From a virus (lineage: Duplodnaviria > Caudoviricetes), in the IMG/VR virus record IMGVR_UViG_3300037482_000077, positions 1 to 51,351 of that record: a stretch of DNA of 51,351 nucleotides. The stretch is one strand, 5' to 3'. The translations under genes were made by a program, and so were the position numbers. Position 1 is the stretch's first letter, and every line of letters starts with the position of its first letter. The notes below the pieces were generated by a model. That model did not search any database. It had not been told where the DNA came from and was given only the letters and a program-made list of their open reading frames with translations. Shown here one piece after another: positions 2,979 through 49,751 of the stretch.

Positions 2979-3200
2979 TCAGGCCGCGGACCGAGCCAAG
3001 AAATACCGCTTTACCCTGCACGCTTCCCCGAACCGGTTCTGCACCTCGACCCATTCGGACGCGATGTCCTCGCCGGCGTCTTTCAGGTCTTTTGCCCTCG
3101 CCGCGAGCCGGAATATTCCGAGTTGCACCAGGGCCGACATCGGCGTCACGGATGCGCCAGTCCTGAGCATGGAGAGCAGGCGGTCGTTCTGGGATCTCAT
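2979..3200 (-). CDS. Small winged-HTH phage protein
   Basis: SVTPMSALVQLGIFRLAARAKDLK motif. Confidence 0.8.
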   Translation of the reverse strand: MRSQNDRLLSMLRTGASVTPMSALVQLGIFRLAARAKDLKDAGEDIASEWVEVQNRFGEACRVKRYFLARSAA

Positions 3201-4279
3201 TGCACGCCCTCCAGTAGATCGGCTTGCTGCTCGGTGATTTCGTAGGCGTCGCGCACGTCGTGGCGCATGCCGAATAGATCGACTTGTTCGGCCGGCAGGC
3301 AATGCGGGCTAAACCAGATCACTTCACGCTTGGCGTTCTCCCGCCCGCGTCCGGTGCCCTGGTTGCCGTATCCGCCTTTCGCCTTCCAGAAATACGGCAC
3401 CCATCCGGCGTCGGTCATCTCGTCGTCGTGCTCGCCCGTATAGCCGCACAGCGCGATGCGAAAGAGCGGGTTGTCCCCGTTGGTCGCGGCCCATGCGCGC
3501 GCCCGGTCTGCGACGCTCTCGGCGGCTTTCACCGCATAGGCGTCGTGGCAGTCGGCCGCCTCCGAGTCATAGGGTGGGTCGAGCACGACGGCGGTTAGCC
3601 CGACGCCCGTCGTCACGGACGGCCCGAGCACGCGCTCGAAGTCGCCGCAGGCAACGCGCACGTCGCGCAGGCGGTCAGCCAGGGATTGAAAGTAGTCGGC
3701 GAGCTTGCGATTGATGCCCTTCCCCTCCGACAGGTGGGGAAGCTTGCGATTGATGCCCTTCCCCTCCGACAGGTGAGGAAGCTTGCGATTGATGCCCTGA
3801 GACGCCGACAGGTGGGGAAGCTGGCGGGAGTCCGTCAATTCGCCGTCGACGACGATCCATGGCCCCTCCCCGCTGCACCAGCCGGAGCCGATCCAGCTCG
3901 AGATGCCCCACACCCACCAGCCGGCCGCCTTTGTGTCGTAGAAGTCAGGCGAACCCATCAAGCGGGCCGTGATGCTCTCGCGCTGCCCATTCAGCCATGC
4001 GTGGCGCGCGTGCAAGTCGCACTCGCTGACCGGCCAGTTGGCGTGGTGCGCGACCGCTTCCGGATCGGCCTGAAGCGCCCGCCAGAAGTTCGCGAGCAGC
4101 CCGTCGAAATCGTTGATCGTCTCGAATCCGCTCACATTCGGCCGCGCCAGCAGGCAGGCCCCGGAGCCGAAGAACGGCTCGACGAAATTGTCGACGACGC
4201 CGAACCGCATCCAAATTTGCGCAGCAACGGCGCTCTTGCCGCCGAACCACGGGTAGGGAGACCGGAGCACATCCTTCAC
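3197..4279 (-). CDS. DNA adenine methyltransferase (Dam/D12 class)
   Basis: PYPWFGGKS, FVEPFFGSGA, ETIND and DPPY motifs; GTG start. Confidence 0.9.
   Translation of the reverse strand: MKDVLRSPYPWFGGKSAVAAQIWMRFGVVDNFVEPFFGSGACLLARPNVSGFETINDFDGLLANFWRALQADPEAVAHHANWPVSECDLHARHAWLNGQRESITARLMGSPDFYDTKAAGWWVWGISSWIGSGWCSGEGPWIVVDGELTDSRQLPHLSASQGINRKLPHLSEGKGINRKLPHLSEGKGINRKLADYFQSLADRLRDVRVACGDFERVLGPSVTTGVGLTAVVLDPPYDSEAADCHDAYAVKAAESVADRARAWAATNGDNPLFRIALCGYTGEHDDEMTDAGWVPYFWKAKGGYGNQGTGRGRENAKREVIWFSPHCLPAEQVDLFGMRHDVRDAYEITEQQADLLEGVQ
3702..3823. repeat. 39-bp in-frame tandem repeat (about 3 copies) inside the methylase
   Basis: Units start at 3702, 3741 and 3780; they encode LPHLS(EGK/ASQ)GINRK. 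Confidence 0.9.
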
Positions 4280-4445
4280 TTGCGCGCCCCCGCCCAGAAA
4301 TCCAGCCACGACCTGGCGAAAACCAGCGGATCGAGCGTCACGGCGACCGCGGCGCGCCGGTGCTCGGCCAGCACCGTGACGGATGCGCACGCCGCCCGCC
4401 GATGGGCCGGGCGCAGGGAGGCGGCGAAGGTCAGCACGTGCGCGG

Positions 4446-4592
4446 TCACAGCGCAGAAATCCACTGCGCGAACTCCATCGCCGCCACGCCGAACCCGAAC
4501 ACAGCGAACATCGCAACGACCATCAGCAGCAACACGAGCCGCATACGGGCCGCGTCTGCGCGGGCGTCAAAGTCATCGGTGTAGTCGTTCAT
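4446..4592 (-). CDS. Small membrane protein (48 aa)
   Basis: MNDYTDD...LVLLLMVVAMFAVFGFGVAAM hydrophobic helix; ATGA overlap with the upstream gene. Confidence 0.6.
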   Translation of the reverse strand: MNDYTDDFDARADAARMRLVLLLMVVAMFAVFGFGVAAMEFAQWISAL

Positions 4593-14718: not shown

Positions 14719-14987
14719 CCGACATCGATACCGGCGACACCGTGCGCCACGAGCCGACCGGCGAAGAATGGCTCGTCGCCTGCGTCATCGGCGACCACCT
14801 GAACTGGTGCGGCTGGCCGGAAGGCACGGCGGCGCTTGCGGACTGCGAGCTGGCGAAGAAGGTATCAGACGAGAAGCGCGACAGACTTCTGCGCGAACTG
14901 ACCGCCATGAAGAGTGACGACCACCGCGGCCGGTATGCGCGGGAGCGGCTGGGCGATACGATGGGCGAACACAGGGAGGAAGCATGA
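14715..14987 (+). CDS. Hypothetical protein
   Basis: AAGGAG RBS; ATGA overlap. Confidence 0.7.
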   Translation: MTDIDTGDTVRHEPTGEEWLVACVIGDHLNWCGWPEGTAALADCELAKKVSDEKRDRLLRELTAMKSDDHRGRYARERLGDTMGEHREEA

Positions 14988-15247
14988 AGCCCGAGCACAA
15001 CATCCTTCAACTACACTGGATTCGCGCGGAGCAGTATTGCCTGCTCTCTGGCGAGTCGATCGACGCCGTCCGCGAGCGCATCCGCGACGGCGCATGGGCC
15101 GCCGGCAAGCACTACCGGCGCACCGGCCCGCGCACCCTTTGGATCAGCATTCCGGCGGTCAATCAATGGATCGAGCAGCAGCCTCTCGTCGCGTCGTGTG
15201 TCCCGAAGGAATTGAAATCCGCCCGGGGGCGCGCAGCGACCGCATAA
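14984..15247 (+). CDS. xis: Excisionase
   Basis: WIRAEQYCLLSGES...GAWAAGKHY...LWISIPAVNQW; overlaps the integrase start. Confidence 0.85.
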   Translation: MKPEHNILQLHWIRAEQYCLLSGESIDAVRERIRDGAWAAGKHYRRTGPRTLWISIPAVNQWIEQQPLVASCVPKELKSARGRAATA

Positions 15248-16389
15248 GGATCAGCTTCAACCTCAACGGCCGGCGCCACCGCGAGACGCTCGATATCCCG
15301 GCCACCGCGGCGAACATCAAGTATGCAGCCCGTCTCCGCGCGGAGGTGCTCAACGCGATTGAGCGCGGCACCTTCGACTACACGACACTGTTCCCGAAGT
15401 CGCGCGCGGCGAAGAAGGCGCAGCGGCAGGGGCGGGCCAAGAAGCCCAGCCAGGTCGGCGAGTTGGTCGATGCCTACCTCGATGCGGCGCGCGCCGCGAA
15501 GGTGATGTCCCCGTCGTCGATCGCGTGCTATGCCCGATGGGGCGAGGCCCGCGTCAAGAAGAAGTGGGGCGACACGCCAGTCGATGAACTGGCGACCGCA
15601 GCGCTGCGGCCCTGGGTCGCGGAGCTGGCCGGGGCGCTCGCGCCGAAGTCCGCCAGGAACTGCGTCGCGCTACTCTCGACCGTGCTCGACCAGGCTGTCG
15701 CAGACGGTTTCATCGCAGCGAATCCACTCGATCCGATCAAGCTCAAACGCGTCATCCCGCGCGCCAGGAAGGGCGTGGACGACGATGTCGATCCGTTCAA
15801 CGATACCGAGGTGTCGGCGATCATCGCCGCCTGCGACCGGCCTGAGGAGCGCGCGCTGTTCCAGTTCGCCTTCGCGGCCGGGTTGCGCACCGGTGAGTTG
15901 ATCGCGCTGAAGTGGGACCATCTCGATCGGCTGCAGGGCTACGCCCATGTCTGCGACAACGTCGTCGACGCCGAGATCGGCACGCGCGAGAAGGACACGA
16001 AGACCGGGTCGGTGCGCGACGTGCCGCTATTGCCCGCCGCCCTTGAGGCGATTGCCACGATGCGGCCGATCAGCCAGCTGCGCAGCCCGTACGTCTTCAC
16101 CGGCGCGGACCATCAGCGGTGGGCGAGCGCGCAGCAGATCCGCAACCGCTGGCGGATCGTTCTGAGGCGCGCCGGCGTGCGGTATCGGAACCCCTACCAG
16201 ACGCGGCACACGTTCGCGTCGCGGCTGCTGATGGCGGGCGAGCGCGAACTGCTCGTGGCGTACCTGCTCGGTCATTCGACCGTCGAGATGGTGCGCCGGC
16301 ACTACGGCCGGTACATCCGGCAGCCGGACGGCGTGACGCTCGCGGGTGATTACAGCGGGTTCGGGGCGAGCGCGAAGAAGGCGGGATAA
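15166..16389 (+). CDS. int: Tyrosine integrase with N-terminal arm-binding domain
   Basis: GLRTGE (R), DTKTG (K), PYQTRHTFA, LGH and HYGRY (Y) motifs. Confidence 0.95.
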   Translation: MDRAAASRRVVCPEGIEIRPGARSDRIRISFNLNGRRHRETLDIPATAANIKYAARLRAEVLNAIERGTFDYTTLFPKSRAAKKAQRQGRAKKPSQVGELVDAYLDAARAAKVMSPSSIACYARWGEARVKKKWGDTPVDELATAALRPWVAELAGALAPKSARNCVALLSTVLDQAVADGFIAANPLDPIKLKRVIPRARKGVDDDVDPFNDTEVSAIIAACDRPEERALFQFAFAAGLRTGELIALKWDHLDRLQGYAHVCDNVVDAEIGTREKDTKTGSVRDVPLLPAALEAIATMRPISQLRSPYVFTGADHQRWASAQQIRNRWRIVLRRAGVRYRNPYQTRHTFASRLLMAGERELLVAYLLGHSTVEMVRRHYGRYIRQPDGVTLAGDYSGFGASAKKAG

Positions 16390-29770: not shown

Positions 29771-30184
29771 CTAGATCACGTCGGACAGGTACCTGAAACT
29801 TACGGGCACGACGTACAGACCCGGCTCGTTCTGGCCGGGGCCGGCAGACACGGGGCTTGTTTGGGTGACGGTGATCGCGCCCGAGGTGAGGCGCAGATTC
29901 ACCGGGAATAAGGTATTCAACTCGCCGAGGATCGTTTCGGCGGCGGCAGGCCCGGCCCCGTCCGGCACGACGATCGACACCTGGAAGACGCCGAGGTATT
30001 GCCGGTGGTCGCCTTTCAGGTCATCGCTACCGGTGGCGGCTGGCAGCAAGAAACAGCGCAAATGCGTGGCCGCGGGGGGCGCGAAGGCGGCGTTCTGCCA
30101 TGCCACTTGCAGCACGGGCGAGTGCGCGGCGGCCCATGTCGCGAGGCGCGACTCGTAGGCGGTGCGGATCAGTTTCTGACTCAT
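29771..30184 (-). CDS. Tail terminator (DUF4128-like)
   Basis: IRTAYESRLATWA, VAWQN, YLGVFQVSIVVP and YVVPVSFRY motifs. Confidence 0.85.
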   Translation of the reverse strand: MSQKLIRTAYESRLATWAAAHSPVLQVAWQNAAFAPPAATHLRCFLLPAATGSDDLKGDHRQYLGVFQVSIVVPDGAGPAAAETILGELNTLFPVNLRLTSGAITVTQTSPVSAGPGQNEPGLYVVPVSFRYLSDVI

Positions 30185-30194
30185 GCTGCCCCTG

Positions 30195-30227
30195 AAAAGA
30201 AAAAGGGCGACTCCGAAGAATCGCCCT
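30195..30227 (-). terminator. Intrinsic terminator closing the guide-RNA array
   Basis: AGGGCGATTC-TTCG-GAGTCGCCCT followed by TTTTCTTTT. Confidence 0.85.
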
Positions 30228-30236
30228 CTGTTTTCT

Positions 30237-30525
30237 GCCGTTTTCGGCCCTTGCCAAACCGTACTTCGCCAGGCAATGCCACGCATTGCTCGGCCACGCC
30301 ACATGATGCTAACTGCATCGGGTAACAGCCATCGGCCGCTATCCGCTGTTTTCAGCCCTGGCCGCTCCGAGACATGCCTCGGATCGCAACGACATGCATC
30401 GCCCCGCCGAGTGGTGCGCTAACCGCATCCCCAAGCGCCAGATAGACGCTTGAGGCTGTTGTCAGCCCGTGCCGTGCCCCGCAATGCCCTGCCCAGCAAT
30501 GCCGTACCGCGCGGAACCAAGCCGC
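30237..30525 (-). ncRNA. Array of three ~110-nt putative guide RNAs built of (GGY-like)+NN pentamers, each capped by a conserved hairpin
   Basis: Pentamer tracts at 30469-30523 (11), 30359-30408 (10) and 30251-30300 (10); caps GGGCTGACAACAGC, GGGCTGAAAACAGC and GGGCCGAAAACGGC with a compensatory stem change. Confidence 0.8.
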
Positions 30526-30533
30526 GAGGTCAA

Positions 30534-31022
30534 TCAATCCTTCACATCAAACCGCAAGCGCCGCGCCTTCCGCGCCTGCTGCGACAGGAACGAGAGCCGC
30601 GCGATAGCGTTCGCGTTCTCCCGCGCCTCGTCATGCGAGAGCGCGCTGCGATCCACAAAATGCAGCCGGCGCCCCATCTTGCGTAGCTCCGACTTCACGC
30701 GGCGCATGCCGTCCTGCATCGCGAACGCCGTCTGCTTCGCCGGCTCGACGATCATGTAGCCCTGCCCCGGCACGGCGCGCAGGCACATGGCTTTCTCTTC
30801 CAGCAGGAAGGTCGCCAGTGCGTCAACCTGCGACAGCAGCGACAGCCGCCAGCTTTCGTACTCCTGCGCCGTGATCCGGCCTTCAGGCTTCTGAAGACTC
30901 ATCGCGGCCTGCATCTCGTCGTGCGGGACAATTTGCCCGTAGGTGTACTTTTTGCCGAACAGCTCGGCCGCCGCGTTCTTCCATGGCGGCAGCAGCGACA
31001 GCGACTCGTCTTCGTTGCCCAT
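30534..31022 (-). CDS. Accessory protein of the RAMP/pentamer-array cassette, function unknown
   Basis: TGATG-coupled to the RAMP gene; LRAVPGQGYMIV wing-like motif; basic helical C-terminus. Confidence 0.75.
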   Translation of the reverse strand: MGNEDESLSLLPPWKNAAAELFGKKYTYGQIVPHDEMQAAMSLQKPEGRITAQEYESWRLSLLSQVDALATFLLEEKAMCLRAVPGQGYMIVEPAKQTAFAMQDGMRRVKSELRKMGRRLHFVDRSALSHDEARENANAIARLSFLSQQARKARRLRFDVKD

Positions 31023-31594
31023 CAGATCACCTCGACATCAAAGCGCCCGAAGCGCGGGCGGTAGGTACCGATGCCGATTCTACGGCCAGCCTCTTCAACC
31101 ACGCGGACCAAGTCGCCGCGGTCGATCACGTCTTCCATGAACGCGACTTCGAATTCCGCCGCCCACTTCAGGAAGATCGGCCGGCATCGCATGATCTTCT
31201 TGCCGGCCACATTCACCCCGCGCACGTCTGCGAACTGTGTTCCCGCGGCCCACAGTTTTTCCTTCTTTCGCGGACCGTCGTATTCGAGTTTGGCGCGATC
31301 AGTCAGCACTTGAACCGCCTGTTTGATGGTCTTGCCGAGCCGATGAATCTTGCCGGCCTCCGCGACGCATCCCTCGAAGTTCAGTGCCGGGATGAATGGG
31401 CCAACGTCGTCCGCGTAGTACATCGATGCCGACCACTCGGACTGCATGAGCCACAAGTAATCATCTTCGGACTTCTTGCGCTTCCCACTGACCGCCTTGT
31501 GCGCTTTCGTCAGTTCGTGCAGCGGATTGGCCAGTGTTTCGGCCTGCATCAGCAACGGCGACGTGCCGGTGATCCTGAATTTGATCGTTTCCAC
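31022..31594 (-). CDS. Stand-alone RAMP (Cas7-like) RNA-binding protein
   Basis: IKFRITGTSPLLM (RRM beta1), PFIPALNFEGCV (cf. P.IPgsslKG), thumb-like DVRGVNVAGKKIMRCRP, C-terminal Gly-rich loop GIGTYRPRFGRF. Confidence 0.75.
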   Translation of the reverse strand: METIKFRITGTSPLLMQAETLANPLHELTKAHKAVSGKRKKSEDDYLWLMQSEWSASMYYADDVGPFIPALNFEGCVAEAGKIHRLGKTIKQAVQVLTDRAKLEYDGPRKKEKLWAAGTQFADVRGVNVAGKKIMRCRPIFLKWAAEFEVAFMEDVIDRGDLVRVVEEAGRRIGIGTYRPRFGRFDVEVI

Positions 31595-31653
31595 GGTTAG
31601 CTCCTGCTCGATGGCCTGCTGTGCGGGCGACGTGCCCTAGCGCCATAAACAGG

Positions 31654-31681
31654 ATTCTACTACCTGTTACGGTAGTGTCAA
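31654..31681 (-). promoter_or_regulatory. Sigma70 promoter of the RAMP cassette with an internal palindromic operator
   Basis: TTGACA-CTACCgtaacaGGTAG-TAGAAT; further CTACCG half-sites toward the XRE gene. Confidence 0.75.
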
Positions 31682-31747
31682 TATCTTTTGCGAGTGCTAC
31701 GCTACCGCTATAGACAAAATTTCTACCGGCCGTAAAGCGAGGCGAAA

Positions 31748-31969
31748 ATGAGCGACATGATTACCGGGCAAAAATTACGCGCCATCAGGGCGCTCAAGGG
31801 CATCACCCAGGCAGAACTGGCCGCCTCTGCCGGCGTTTCTCCCACTGCGATTGCCGAGTTCGAGACCGGCAAGCGCGACATTCGTGCATCGACCGTCGCC
31901 AAGCTCTGCGAGGCGCTCGGGGTGTCGGTGACCTACAAGGTTGATGGGACTGAGATCAGCGGTCCATAG
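31748..31969 (+). CDS. XRE-family HTH regulator, divergent from the RAMP gene
   Basis: LRAIRALKGITQAELAASAGVSPTAIAEFETGKRD. Confidence 0.9.
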   Translation: MSDMITGQKLRAIRALKGITQAELAASAGVSPTAIAEFETGKRDIRASTVAKLCEALGVSVTYKVDGTEISGP

Positions 31970-31972
31970 CCG

Positions 31973-32362
31973 CTAACCGCCGTAGCGCGCTTGAATTTCT
32001 GTGAGCGTCAGTTTCACTATGCCAGCCGGGGCCTGCTTGCTGCTGCCGTTTTCGAGCTTCAGCGCATACGGCAACGAGTTCGTGCAGAAGATCAACGCGC
32101 CATCCATTAGCCGTGTCGTCGCGACCGCCGAGGCAATGCGCCCGATCGTTCCGCCTCCGCTCTTGTCGGTCGTGGTGCTGGTTGTGACGTTGGGGGCGCC
32201 GTGGCCGATTACGAAATTCGCCCTGAATCGCCCAGTATCGACTGGGGATTTTTTCACCATGCCGGAGAACGCCTCGAGCATGATTTTTCGCACGCCCGTA
32301 TCGGCCTGCCCGTTCGCCCTGGCAACGAGCCGCGACAGGTCCAGCGAGAATTTGCCGGCCAT
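31973..32362 (-). CDS. HK97 gp10-like tail completion protein
   Basis: SPVDTGRFRANF and NSLPYALKLENGSSKQAPAGIV motifs. Confidence 0.9.
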   Translation of the reverse strand: MAGKFSLDLSRLVARANGQADTGVRKIMLEAFSGMVKKSPVDTGRFRANFVIGHGAPNVTTSTTTDKSGGGTIGRIASAVATTRLMDGALIFCTNSLPYALKLENGSSKQAPAGIVKLTLTEIQARYGG

Positions 32363-32364
32363 GG

Positions 32365-32724
32365 TCAGCGCCTGATCTGCACGGTATGCAGCACCGCGGT
32401 TCCGGCCGGCGACGTGGTATTGACGCTGACCACGCCGTATTCGGTCGCGCCGACCAGAATGCGGTCGTCTGGCTCGGGGGCGGTGACGCCGGCCGGTGAC
32501 AGCAACACGTACTTGTCGCCGCGCTGGATCATCGAGCCGTCGATCTGCTTGGTGGCGTAGTCGAACACCGCGCCGCTACCGAGCTCGTCCGTCACCGTCA
32601 CCGCCGCCGATCCGGTCGCCGGGTCATACGCGCCGGCCGTGCGGTGGCGCACCGTCACGGCTTGGCCGAACTCGACGATCAGTTCGTCGGCGACGGCGGC
32701 CAGTTCGGTGTAGTCGAAACTCAC
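32365..32724 (-). CDS. Head closure/head-tail joining protein
   Basis: GAYDPATG, IDGSMIQRGDK; position in the operon. Confidence 0.8.
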   Translation of the reverse strand: MSFDYTELAAVADELIVEFGQAVTVRHRTAGAYDPATGSAAVTVTDELGSGAVFDYATKQIDGSMIQRGDKYVLLSPAGVTAPEPDDRILVGATEYGVVSVNTTSPAGTAVLHTVQIRR

Positions 32725-33152
32725 TGCGCAAGCTCCAACAGATCTATTCCGTTGCCGCAGTCCGTCTGGAACACACAGGCAACCGCTACCGCCTCATGCG
32801 CCCGCCGTCCGAGGTACATGGCGGCCTCTGCATAGTCGCGGCCAGAGCCGAACGCACAGCGCGACTCCTCGATGGTCAGCGGGAATGGCCCGGTTGCGTA
32901 GGATTGAATCCCGCTCTTCGTGATCACGATCAGCGTCGCCTCATCGTCTCGCGCCTTCGCCGGAAACCTCTCAGGGTCTGCGCCAGACTTCCACCACTCT
33001 CGCATTTCTGCTCCAACGTCGTAGTTTCCAGTGATGGCCAGAAGCGCACTGCCGTGCCGCTGGATCTTTGTCACGGTGCGAGCGATGCCGCCGCCCGTCG
33101 TCGCGCGTTTGTCAGCCGCCAGAATTCGCCCGTCCCACGCGATGACAGTCAT
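32721..33152 (-). CDS. Ntn-hydrolase (HslV/proteasome beta-like) protein
   Basis: M-T-V-I-A-W-D-G...AADK N-terminus and AFGSG motif. Confidence 0.7.
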   Translation of the reverse strand: MTVIAWDGRILAADKRATTGGGIARTVTKIQRHGSALLAITGNYDVGAEMREWWKSGADPERFPAKARDDEATLIVITKSGIQSYATGPFPLTIEESRCAFGSGRDYAEAAMYLGRRAHEAVAVACVFQTDCGNGIDLLELAQ

Positions 33153-37942: not shown

Positions 37943-38362
37943 TCAGTCCTTCGCCAGCCAGGCCGAGAACGTGATCGACGGCGTGGTGCCATCGACCGCA
38001 GTGCTCAGCCGGACATAGCGATAGACCGTGCCATTTTGCTCGTTGCGGAACGGCACCACGAAGCGGCCGACCGCGGTGTCGGCGTCGCCCGGGGCGGTGA
38101 CGTTGCCCATGCGCGACACGGCGAGCTCCACGCTGCCGCTGGTCATGGCGGCGACGTTGGAGCCTTCGAGCGAGATCACGTAGTACTCGTCGGTCGAGGC
38201 CACGTCGATGCCGGTCACGTCGATGACGAGATGACCGCACACCAGCCCGGCGCCGAGGTCCAGGATGGTCGCGCCGACATCGGTCTGCGCGGTGGTGTGG
38301 GCCGCCGACGCCTCGAGCAGCAGCGCGTTGTCGTAGGTGAATTGCGAATACAGGTTTGCCAT
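37943..38362 (-). CDS. Capsid decoration/cement protein
   Basis: Follows MCP; YRYVRL motif. Confidence 0.7.
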   Translation of the reverse strand: MANLYSQFTYDNALLLEASAAHTTAQTDVGATILDLGAGLVCGHLVIDVTGIDVASTDEYYVISLEGSNVAAMTSGSVELAVSRMGNVTAPGDADTAVGRFVVPFRNEQNGTVYRYVRLSTAVDGTTPSITFSAWLAKD

Positions 38363-46699: not shown

Positions 46700-46915
46700 T
46701 CAACCAGAGCCCACGATTGCATCGAACAGATAGTTCGTTGTTCGTCTCACGATTCGCCCGATCATTGTCTTCGGCATGTCGGCCTGCCACGCCCTATACG
46801 CAGACTCAGCCGACGCGCCAAAGCCTTTCGCCAGCTTCGACTCGCAGCAATACGCAGGGAGGAAGCGGATACCAAAAAGGTACGGACTCGCGATGTAACG
46901 AATTTTCGGCTTCAT
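46700..46915 (-). CDS. Hypothetical protein
   Basis: ATGA overlap with the Q-like gene. Confidence 0.55.
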   Translation of the reverse strand: MKPKIRYIASPYLFGIRFLPAYCCESKLAKGFGASAESAYRAWQADMPKTMIGRIVRRTTNYLFDAIVGSG

Positions 46916-47292
46916 GTTCTTGCCCGGTTGCGCACCATCCGCATCGCCCGGTGCAGCTCCGTCACCATCTCGTCGCGCCGAATCGCCAGCACGCGCCGGA
47001 TGTAGCCTTCCTGGGCGCGGTGTAGACAGTGCAAATGGATCAGCCACCGCTGACGCTCAGGCAGCGCACACACGTGACTGTGCAGCGCCTCGGCGGCCAG
47101 GCTGTCCCACTCGGCGCGCGGCTCGCTGTCCTGCCAGATGTCCGTGCTCTTGAACCGGTACTCGATCGACCGGCAATGCCCGCGGCGGATACGGTCGCGG
47201 GACCATGCCGCCCAGTTCTCTAGCCGCTCGTGCGTCTCCTGCAGGTCTTCCGGAATGCGGCGAAGCTGCTCAAATATCGACTCACGAATCAT
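46912..47292 (-). CDS. Q-like late antiterminator
   Basis: ERLENWAAW N-terminus, C-terminal HTH-like segment; last nin-region gene before pR'. Confidence 0.7.
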   Translation of the reverse strand: MIRESIFEQLRRIPEDLQETHERLENWAAWSRDRIRRGHCRSIEYRFKSTDIWQDSEPRAEWDSLAAEALHSHVCALPERQRWLIHLHCLHRAQEGYIRRVLAIRRDEMVTELHRAMRMVRNRART

Positions 47293-49001: not shown

Positions 49002-49751
49002 TTATGCGGCAAGCTCACGCTTTGCCATCTCGCAGAAAATCCCGCACTGAACCTCGGGCTCGCTCTGGTAGTCGCCAGTGCCGGGCTGCAGTTCGTCCAG
49101 AAACGCCCGCTCTTCATTGATCCGAATCAGGCGCACGCCGAGCCGGCGCGACTCTTTCGCCATGTGGTCGAATTGCTCGGGGAAGTCGGCGCGAATCTTG
49201 TTCCAGTAGCCTTGCCCGGTCGCTTTGCAGCAGCCGATGCAGTTATTGTGCTGGTAGCCGAGCCGGTACATTTTCGGCAATTCGATCCCGGCGTCCTTCA
49301 CCATCGCCAGGCAGTCGGAATGCTCTAGCCCGCGCTCGATAAGCGGTGAAAAGGCGTCGATATTGTTCGCGTCGAGAAAGTCATCCCATCGGCCCTGTTC
49401 TTCGGCGCAGTAGCCGAAGACATGCCGGTCGGTCGGCTTCTCGAAGCGGCGGCGAACTTCCTTTTTCAGCTCCAGCGTGCAGGGCGCCCCACCGATGCCG
49501 CTGATGTACGAGCGCTGCCGGAAAACCTCGTAAATCGAGCCGTCGTACTTCTCCGCGATCAGGTTCATGATCGGCACGCCAAACCACGCCTCGCAGTCGG
49601 CGGCAAAGCGGTCGTTGTCCGGGTGCTCCTCGCGCACGATGCACCGCGCTACCACCAGTGGCAGTCGGCCCGCGTTCTCGGCAATCGCCAGCTTCGTCGC
49701 CACCCCACTGGCGGCGCCGCACGAAAACCAGCACACAATCCGTTGTTCCAT
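49002..49751 (-). CDS. PAPS-reductase-like PP-loop protein, carried in an attC-like cassette
   Basis: WFSCGAASG, EHPDN, APCT, HNNCIGC and CGIFC motifs. Confidence 0.85.
   Translation of the reverse strand: MEQRIVCWFSCGAASGVATKLAIAENAGRLPLVVARCIVREEHPDNDRFAADCEAWFGVPIMNLIAEKYDGSIYEVFRQRSYISGIGGAPCTLELKKEVRRRFEKPTDRHVFGYCAEEQGRWDDFLDANNIDAFSPLIERGLEHSDCLAMVKDAGIELPKMYRLGYQHNNCIGCCKATGQGYWNKIRADFPEQFDHMAKESRRLGVRLIRINEERAFLDELQPGTGDYQSEPEVQCGIFCEMAKRELAA

What the first reader, a model, noticed from the sequence alone, without database searches (positions are those of the whole stretch)
30237..30525. Array architecture: conserved triplets, variable dinucleotides and covarying cap hairpins
Minus-strand tracts are as follows. 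Unit 1: GGCtt GGTtc CGCgc GGTac GGCat TGCtg GGCag GGCat TGCgg GGCac GGCac. Unit 2: GGCgg GGCga TGCat GTCgt TGCga TCCga GGCat GTCtc GGAgc GGCca. Unit 3: GGCgt GGCcg AGCaa TGCgt GGCat TGCct GGCga AGTac GGTtt GGCaa. Each tract ends in GG plus a 4-bp hairpin (GCTG-ACAA-CAGC, GCTG-AAAA-CAGC, GCCG-AAAA-CGGC), with a compensatory base-pair change in unit 3. Between units lie a longer hairpin and a small GTTA-loop hairpin (TGCG-GTTAG-CGCA; GATGC-AGTTA-GCATC). The unit period is 110/108 nt. A fixed 5-nt phase with non-repeating NN is unlike a slippage microsatellite and looks like information storage with processing signals.
Basis: seen in the sequence. Interest (0 to 1): 0.9.

Follow-up and report, generated by a model that had tools for sequence, protein, structure and literature searches.

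The report
Phage VIPR array targeting neck gene
The repeats are three predicted guide RNAs of a VIPR system (a CRISPR-related DNA silencer described in 2026) inserted among a phage's tail genes, and the third guide spells, in the published gapped code, the neck gene of related phages, so it likely shuts down tail production in rival phages.

Summary
The three GGY/NN tracts with cap hairpins are the vrRNA array of a type II VIPR system (bioRxiv 10.64898/2026.04.26.720920).

The adjacent 190-aa ORF matches solved SUSP1 Vipr (E 4.8e-38). The next ORF is a Vap1 homologue. Across 15 units from 6 loci, NN identity is random-level (0.25) and triplet identity is 0.70. The 4-bp cap covaries.

Read with the 1-nt-skip code, guide 3 spells the neck gene of related phages. 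One metagenomic phage gene matches 21 of 22 bases with the wobble base skipped. The carrier's own copy, next to the cassette, matches 17 of 22. A close relative with an empty site co-occurs in one sediment run, but matches only about 18 of 22 (inferred).

Targets of guides 1 and 2 were not found. Next-door targeting was absent in 11 of 11 guides from related cassettes. Expression and silencing are untested. This scan found VIPR systems before on other DNA.

Verdict: a new member of a known kind, with one well-supported target.

The parts
31748..31969 (+). Divergent Xre/Cro-type HTH gene, predicted repressor of the cassette
   Evidence: Pfam HTH_3 E 8e-17; a similar divergent HTH ORF is listed for L002 and seen by eye in L001, L003, L159; repressor role inferred
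31654..31681 (-). sigma70-like promoter of the vipr operon (TTGACA, 16 nt, TAGAAT)
   Evidence: Only promoter-like site in 30100-32050, 11 of 12 matches, 0.6 expected by chance; activity untested
31659..31676 (.). Operator-like inverted repeat inside the promoter spacer
   Evidence: Sequence; core conserved in 5 of 5 aligned loci; HTH binding inferred
31612..31646 (-). Predicted 5' leader hairpin upstream of vipr
   Evidence: Fold z -1.8, 8 of 200 shuffles as good; similar stem by eye in L001, L002, L159, not L003; weak
31022..31594 (-). vipr gene, 190 aa RAMP/Cas7-like guide-binding protein
   Evidence: phmmer to PDB 36pp 'SUSP1 Vipr protein', E 4.8e-38 over residues 2-189; phrog_4652
30534..31022 (-). 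vap1-type accessory gene, 162 aa, overlapping the vipr stop
   Evidence: 31% identity over 112 aa, E 5e-15, to the gene after vipr in Felixounavirus Andreotti; same family phrog_5926 in 4 of 4 such genes tested
30469..30526 (-). vrRNA1 guide tract, 12 YNNGG units; target not found
   Evidence: negative searches
30415..30468 (-). vrRNA1 tail: GG, 4-bp cap (30466-30455), long hairpin (30454-30429), small hairpin (30427-30415)
   Evidence: alternative fold
30359..30411 (-). vrRNA2 guide tract, 11 units; target not established
   Evidence: best hits 18-19 of 22 in unrelated genes
30305..30358 (-). vrRNA2 tail: cap (30356-30345), long hairpin (30344-30320), small hairpin (30319-30305)
   Evidence: Free fold gives all three stems, z -2.9
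30251..30303 (-). vrRNA3 guide tract, 11 units; decodes to neck-gene codons of related phages
30237..30250 (-). vrRNA3 cap hairpin with compensatory change
30202..30229 (-). Intrinsic terminator closing the cassette
   Evidence: 12-pair stem plus T run
31973..32362 (-). Neck1/tail-completion gene flanking the cassette; homologue of the guide-3 target gene
   Evidence: phrog_169 E 1.5e-37
32265..32296 (-). Carrier's own, mismatched copy of the guide-3 site (17 of 22)
   Evidence: Best 1-skip match in the window; mismatches at units 1, 5, 9, 11
29771..30184 (-). Tail terminator gene, other flank; abuts the neck gene in cassette-free relatives
   Evidence: Pfam PF13554; L153 gene order; joint 30186-31994

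Best explanation
The array is the predicted guide-RNA part of a type II VIPR cassette (HTH, promoter, vipr, vap1, three vrRNAs, terminator) inserted between the neck and tail-terminator genes of a tailed phage, and guide 3 likely directs Vipr to silence the neck gene, and so the downstream tail genes, of related phages. Shown here: gene identities, anatomy, NN variability, cap covariation, the gapped match of guide 3 to neck genes, the lower match to the carrier's own copy, and an empty-site allele in a relative. Taken from the published SUSP1 and P. fulva systems, not shown here: the transcript yields roughly 70-110 nt RNAs; one Vipr binds each pentamer and buries GGY; NN pairs with double-stranded DNA skipping every third base; binding blocks transcription. 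Inferred: a roadblock early in a rival's neck gene is polar on its tail genes; the HTH represses the cassette promoter; guides 1 and 2 point at elements not sampled here.
For: Vipr homology E 4.8e-38. Residues the structural paper names as functional (K33, R39, K82, R138, R179) are kept: K33, R138 and R179 in 118-119 of 120 homologues, R39 and K82 read from the alignment. Vap1 homology. 11-12 units per guide, within the published 9-16. NN entropy 1.88 and 2.00 bits against 0.86-1.06 for triplets over 150 repeats; pairwise NN identity 0.25, triplet identity 0.70 over 105 pairs. Cap: 3 of 4 pairs and 8 of 64 cells changed on both sides, 0 of 500 shuffles reach it. Guide 3: best window match is the adjacent neck gene, in codon frame; 0 of 500 shuffles reach it within 7 kb; 2% reach it window-wide at amino-acid level. 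Among 120 neck proteins, 2 reach 21 of 22 and 12 reach 18 or more; 0 of 200 shuffled guides reach the maximum. The one exact 20-base hit in metagenome contigs lies at that codon position of a neck gene 60% identical to the carrier's, 21 of 22, wobble skipped, in a syntenic head-tail module whose neck gene abuts the tail terminator. Over 107 loci (728 kb) the best scores are 21 at skip 1 and 16, 16, 17 at skips 0, 2, 3; the ten next-best skip-1 rows are all the neck site. The last NN is AA in 8 of 15 units, which would explain the one mismatch.
Against: No expression, binding or silencing data. Only 1 of 3 guides has a target. The pattern that hit was trimmed of its last NN after the protein matches were seen; untrimmed or shifted patterns gave 0 hits, and 0 of 401 genomes matched with 1 mismatch. 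A 14-base scan returned 120 loci from about half the viral collection, only 1 a neck gene, best 18 of 22. L153 was selected by the 1-skip pattern; without it the skip-1 best is 18, which 4 of 60 shuffles also reach. L153 has 53% G+C against about 64% here, so a shared host is not shown. The co-occurring empty-site relative scores only about 18 of 22 (inferred from its likeness to P0002), one base above self. Vipr D177, essential in SUSP1, is T here and H17 is Q (clade-wide: T in 99, Q in 100 of 120). Cap units were chosen by having a stem, so percent paired is circular.
Confidence: 0.85

Rival explanations
1. The cassette is a genuine VIPR, but guide 3 is a relic that no longer meets a well-matched target; present activity, if any, comes from guides 1 and 2 against unsampled elements such as satellites or prophage regulators.
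For: The sister phage seen in the same run as the carrier matches only about 18 of 22 (5' half inferred). The best DNA match is a more distant, lower-GC phage. Unit 2 has only 4 of 10 perfect GGY. Published type II targets are satellites and lysis-lysogeny regulators.
Against: Promoter, both ORFs, three caps and terminator are intact. Guide 3 equals the majority sequence of the 12 aligned close neck homologues over its first 10 codons. The sister matches the tail-proximal units 7-10, near where the filament is reported to nucleate, while self is broken at unit 9.
Confidence: 0.2
2. Guide 3 works on the carrier's own neck gene as a partial-match autoregulator that damps late transcription.
For: The own copy matches 17 of 22, the best in the genome, about 300 bp from the cassette.
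Against: 77% is under the 80% cut used for natural targets, and the paper found no self hits above it. Homologues match better at the same position. The carrier's G23 occurs in 0 of the 11 closest homologues and A31 in 1 of 11, which looks like escape rather than selection for a match.
Confidence: 0.05
3. The tracts are a degenerate microsatellite or an unannotated short coding region, and the neck match is chance.
For: Tandem Repeats Finder reports a short 15-nt period in unit 1; short ORFs can be drawn across the region.
Against: NN non-repeating and random across homologues, fixed 5-nt phase, covarying cap, adjacency to a Vipr homologue in 6 of 6 related loci examined, no GC3 bias, and a match that improves to 21 of 22 in homologues.
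Confidence: 0.01

Closest known systems
Type II VIPR systems of Escherichia phage SUSP1 and the Pseudomonas fulva prophage (bioRxiv 10.64898/2026.04.26.720920; structures in 10.64898/2026.04.26.720927; PDB 36pp)
   Same: vipr plus vap1 two-gene operon, downstream array of vrRNAs with 9-16 YNNGG units and a structured 3' tail, phage-borne, 1-nt-skip wobble-aligned target in another phage, no self match at 80% or more.
   Different: About 40% identical to Felixounavirus Vipr. No upstream vrRNA; a divergent HTH gene and operator-like palindrome sit there. The tail is a GG plus 4-bp cap and two hairpins, shared with Pseudomonas phages Medea1 and LESphi2, unlike the Felixounavirus tails; no pseudoknot was tested. 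H17 and D177 are Q and T. The target is a virion structural gene homologous to the gene beside the cassette, not a satellite recombinase or a regulator.
Solo vrRNAs of VIPR-null phages and F5 satellites (bioRxiv 10.64898/2026.10.15.759431)
   Same: Guides aimed at close relatives, with lower self-match than rival-match; wobble-aligned reading.
   Different: Here vipr and vap1 are present and intact; the target is a neck gene rather than vipr, vrRNA, a satellite or REP elements.
Free-standing homing endonucleases of T-even phages, intronless homing and marker exclusion (PMC2988022, passages read)
   Same: A mobile cassette whose recognition site lies hundreds of bases from its insertion site in the cognate gene of cassette-free relatives.
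   Different: No nuclease is evident; recognition is by RNA. Any spread would come from selection among recombinants, not break repair. Works-like analogy only.
Class 1 CRISPR-Cas (Cas7 filament on crRNA)
   Same: RAMP protein polymerising on a guide RNA with a structured handle.
   Different: No CRISPR repeat-spacer array or other cas gene seen in the region; specificity is in dispersed dinucleotides.

Membership tests
VIPR (type II) | Stand-alone Vipr RAMP homologue of about 20 kDa | tested here: met
   190 aa, E 4.8e-38 to SUSP1 Vipr, full length
VIPR (type II) | G-loop, thumb and bundle residues needed for function | tested here: inconclusive
   K33, R39, K82, R138, R179 and G-x-G kept, W178 is Y; D177 is T and H17 is Q, clade-wide
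VIPR (type II) | vap1 accessory gene directly after vipr | tested here: met
   E 5e-15 to the gene after vipr in a Felixounavirus, taken as vap1 by synteny; shared phrog_5926
VIPR (type II) | vrRNAs of 9-16 YNNGG units in flanking intergenic DNA | tested here: met
   12, 11, 11 units; 18 of 31 triplets perfect GGY, most others off by one base
VIPR (type II) | NN hypervariable and GGY conserved across homologues | tested here: met
   NN identity 0.25, triplet 0.70, 15 units, 105 pairs
VIPR (type II) | Conserved structured 3' tail | tested here: met
   Cap covariation in 16 units; two further hairpins in non-terminal units
VIPR (SUSP1 clade only) | Pseudoknot in the tail | not tested
   Tail differs in sequence from Felixounavirus tails; no pseudoknot analysis run
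VIPR (type II) | Target in another mobile element by the 1-nt-skip rule, 80% or more, wobble-aligned | tested here: met
   Guide 3: 21 of 22 in L153. Guides 1 and 2: none established
VIPR (type II) | No self target at 80% or more | tested here: met
   Best 1-skip self scores 17 of 24, 17 of 22, 17 of 22
VIPR (type II) | Phage or prophage location, no CRISPR array | tested here: met
   Terminase, portal, head, neck and tail genes; virus record; no CRISPR-like repeats
VIPR (type II) | Discrete vrRNAs bound by Vipr; transcriptional silencing | not testable with these tools
   Needs small-RNA sequencing, pull-down and reporter assays
Free-standing homing endonuclease | Site-specific DNA nuclease domain | tested here: not met
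   No nuclease family hit for any cassette protein in Pfam or PHROGs
CRISPR-Cas class 1 | Repeat-spacer array and cas operon | tested here: not met
   None seen

The most novel reading that the evidence does not exclude
The cassette spreads by RNA-guided homing without a nuclease. Guide 3 silences the neck gene, and so the tails, of any coinfecting relative with the empty site. Only recombinants that take the cassette together with the neighbouring mismatched neck allele escape, so the cassette drives itself into related phages. Fitting this: the target gene flanks the insertion site, and an empty-site relative co-occurs. Against that relative the flanks are 95-96% identical, while neck DNA next to the cassette is about 81% or less, with the divergence boundary (32277) inside the guide site. 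Against it: 0 of 11 guides in four related cassettes show a next-door match within about 3 kb, and the relative's site is only about one base better than self.
Probability: 0.2. Interest if true: 0.7.

Novelty: new member of a known kind. Interest (0 to 1): 0.42.

Why it matters
The class is published, so the array itself is not a discovery. What this locus adds is a natural target of a different sort: an essential virion gene of related phages, homologous to the gene beside the cassette, with the carrier's own allele mismatched and an empty-site relative in the same habitat. That gives a concrete case for asking how VIPR guides are acquired and how self-targeting is avoided. It also marks a clade (about 65 listed proteins at 70% identity or more) with Q17/T177 in place of the G1-reading residues and an HTH-controlled, mobile cassette. 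In the VIPR text I could search, 'neck' and 'homing' do not occur, but the papers' target tables (data S3, supplementary tables) were not available and may hold similar cases.

Tried and rejected
1. Guide 1 aimed at homologues of the carrier's PAPS-reductase-like gene (self 17 of 24 at 49546-49580): rejected; the best among 120 homologues is still 17 of 24 and 15% of shuffles reach it.
2. Guide 1, 18-base pattern in viral contigs: 0 hits. Full pattern with 3 mismatches in 5 records: 0.
3. Guide 2, 18-base pattern: 5 loci (2 are the same sequence), 18-19 of 22, in unrelated genes with no similarity to the window; the best is a portal-like ORF (L154, label from recalled resemblance). Treated as probable chance. 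Full pattern with 3 mismatches in 5 records: 0. Its self hit at 38210-38241 skips codon position 1, not the wobble.
4. Guide 3 scans that found nothing or chance hits.
5. Next-door targeting as a clade rule: 0 of 11 guides, about 3 kb flanks only.
6. Rfam: two sub-threshold hits outside the array. Pfam: no significant hit for Vipr or Vap. No solved relative of Vap.
7. Single-sequence fold of Vap: mean pLDDT 57.7, not used.
8. Sequencing runs: no RNA holder listed; no evidence either way.
9. L153's whole contig is not held for genome search, so absence of vipr is shown only for the 10 kb fetched.
10. Earlier scan notes by place and by sequence: nothing.

Full report
Observation. The minus strand holds three tracts of five-base units at 30523-30469, 30408-30359 and 30300-30251. 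Each is followed by GG and a 4-bp hairpin; two further hairpins follow units 1 and 2, and an intrinsic terminator follows unit 3. Cap spacing is 110 and 108 nt. Over 31 pentamers the first three positions carry 0.55-1.28 bits of entropy and the last two 1.81-1.94. Units 1 and 3 exceed all 40 simulated genomes in GGY phase score; unit 2 alone does not.

Setting. The window is a tailed-phage genome with terminase, portal, head, neck, tail tube and tape measure genes. Its first 100 bases recur near the end, so it is probably complete and circular. An integrase-like ORF at 14914-16389 (label from recalled motifs, not searched) suggests it is temperate. The array lies in a 1.8-kb block between the neck gene (31973-32362) and the tail terminator gene (29771-30184). 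The block holds a divergent HTH gene, a near-consensus sigma70 promoter with a palindrome in its spacer, ORFs of 190 and 162 aa, the array and a terminator.

Identity. The 190-aa protein matches the solved SUSP1 Vipr over its whole length (E 4.8e-38) and has relatives in 130 of 50,697 phage records. The 162-aa protein is 31% identical over 112 aa to the gene after vipr in a Felixounavirus and shares its PHROG family. The discovery paper (10.64898/2026.04.26.720920; whole text read; supplement PDF searched by terms; data files not available) defines VIPR as vipr plus vap plus RNAs of 9-16 YNNGG units with a structured tail, read with one skipped target base between NN pairs. Of the structural paper (10.64898/2026.04.26.720927) I read parts 1-2 of 6. 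Residues it names as functional are kept here except D177 (T) and H17 (Q); these changes are shared by 99 and 100 of 120 listed homologues, so they mark the clade rather than a dead gene. That they preserve function is an inference.

Homologous arrays. Four close loci (82-86% Vipr identity) and two Pseudomonas phages carry the same scaffold and cap with different NN. My rule picked 15 units from the window and five of these loci. It missed the L003 unit and two L005 units with longer loops, and in a few units ran some pentamers too far 5'. Across the 15, NN identity is 0.25 and triplet identity 0.70 (105 pairs). With the L003 unit added by hand, 3 of 4 cap pairs and 8 of 64 cells show changes on both sides, and 0 of 500 shuffles match that. 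Percent paired is circular because the stem was the selection rule, and relatedness can inflate this control. The close cassettes sit at other places: after the portal gene in L002 and L159, and before a neck-like gene in L003.

Target of guide 3. With one skipped base, the guide reads as codons V V R K V I/M L E/D T F/L K/N. Its best match in the 51-kb window is the adjacent neck gene, in frame, 17 of 22; I noted the hypothesis, before the tests that follow. Among 120 listed neck homologues (of 189 found), two read VVRKVMLETF (21 of 22 possible) and 12 reach 18 or more; no shuffled guide of 200 reaches the maximum. I then dropped the last NN, which is AA in 8 of 15 units, and searched metagenome contigs for the first ten. 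One exact hit came back. It lies at that position of a neck gene 60% identical to the carrier's, scores 21 of 22 with the wobble base skipped, and sits in a syntenic head-tail module where neck abuts tail terminator. The collection's size is not given, so a chance 20-base hit somewhere cannot be excluded; the weight comes from where it fell. Over 107 neck-relative loci the best scores are 21 at skip 1 and 16-17 at other skips; without L153, which the pattern itself selected, the best is 18, in five loci, all at the neck site. None of the 107 loci holds vipr or vap in the fetched flanks. Negative scans; the 14-base scan covered 34 of 64 parts of the viral collection and gave chance-level hits.

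Empty site in nature. Nine sediment runs hold parts of the cassette (X1 may be the source). In run X2, exact short pieces of the cassette occur at depth 2-3. A 10-kb contig at depth 167 joins 30186 to 31994, skipping 1807 bases with 15 other letters between (depth is not a share of cells). That contig differs at 31 of 787 and 23 of 437 bases in the outer flanks, at 35 of 189 in the neck DNA beside the cassette, and is unalignable from 32182 to 32277. Its loose end reads E-T-F-R-S-A-V-M-K where the carrier has E-A-F-S-G-M-V-K-K, so it matches guide units 7-10. The 5' half was not listed base by base; all visible residues agree with protein P0002, which would give 18 of 22. The sister is therefore only slightly better matched than self, though matched in the tail-proximal part where the filament is reported to form first.

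Guides 1 and 2. No target was established. Exact-pattern scans miss targets with a single mismatch, so this is weak evidence.

Mechanism. Most likely the cassette is transcribed from its own promoter, Vipr coats each guide, and vrRNA3 parks the filament about 23 codons into a rival's neck gene, blocking transcription of its tail genes during coinfection or superinfection. The carrier escapes through mismatches at units 1, 5 and 9; G23 occurs in none of its 11 closest homologues and A31 in one. RNA production, binding and silencing are carried over from SUSP1 and P. fulva. Polarity, HTH control and a shared host with the target phages are inferences.

Comparison and novelty. This is a member of type II VIPR by every sequence feature I could test, apart from the two substituted residues. 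Published type II targets are satellites, lysis-lysogeny regulators and other VIPR loci (10.64898/2026.10.15.759431, parts 1-3 of 8 and term passages read; its supplementary tables are closed). VIPR arrays are also catalogued in bulk (10.64898/2026.10.21.760802, passages). A structural-gene target beside the insertion site recalls intronless homing in T-even phages (PMC2988022, passages), but no nuclease is present, and 0 of 11 guides in related cassettes show a next-door match.

Verdict. Real, correctly described, a new member of a known kind; interest 0.42. The homing-like reading has probability about 0.2 and would deserve 0.7.

Noticed in passing
window 31659-31676 and 31748-31969; L001, L002, L003, L159 upstream of vipr: Divergent HTH gene with a conserved palindrome inside the vipr promoter spacer; looks like a regulatory switch particular to this VIPR clade.
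   Followed up: partly
window 31612-31646 (-): Leader hairpin before the vipr start with apparent compensatory changes in L001, L002 and L159 but not L003; weak folding z-score.
   Followed up: partly
window 30415-30466 (-): Tail 1 has two exclusive folds: cap plus small hairpin, or one long stem in which the cap's 5' strand pairs with the small hairpin's loop (z -5.3).
   Followed up: no
L003:2231-2334: Single long vrRNA of about 18 units, above the published 9-16, directly upstream of a neck-like gene; no self match.
   Followed up: partly
L001:4311-4830: Five-unit array separated from vap by an extra short ORF; its unit-4 tail nearly equals the unit-1 tail of L002, suggesting exchange of units between cassettes.
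   Followed up: no
G001:C20:361384-361872 (-), about 13.5 kb from the vipr gene of L159: Second, distant Vipr-like match (28% identity, E 1e-6) on the same contig.
   Followed up: no
window 31994-32277 against run X2 record 1: Neck DNA beside the cassette is far more diverged from the empty-site relative than the outer flanks, with a boundary inside the guide-3 site.
   Followed up: partly
window 3702-3826: 39-bp in-frame tandem repeat, 3.2 copies, inside the ORF at 3197-4516 that resembles a DNA methyltransferase (label recalled, not searched).
   Followed up: no
window 49002-49727 (-): PAPS-reductase-like gene (phrog_424) with 4596 relatives found.
   Followed up: partly
window 32721-33152 (-): HslV-family peptidase gene (phrog_1040) between head-tail adaptor and head closure genes; no match in the fetched L153 module.
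   Followed up: no
window 46912-47292 (-): ORF resembling a Q-type antiterminator (recalled; no PHROG hit); relevant because the cassette puts a terminator inside the late operon.
   Followed up: no
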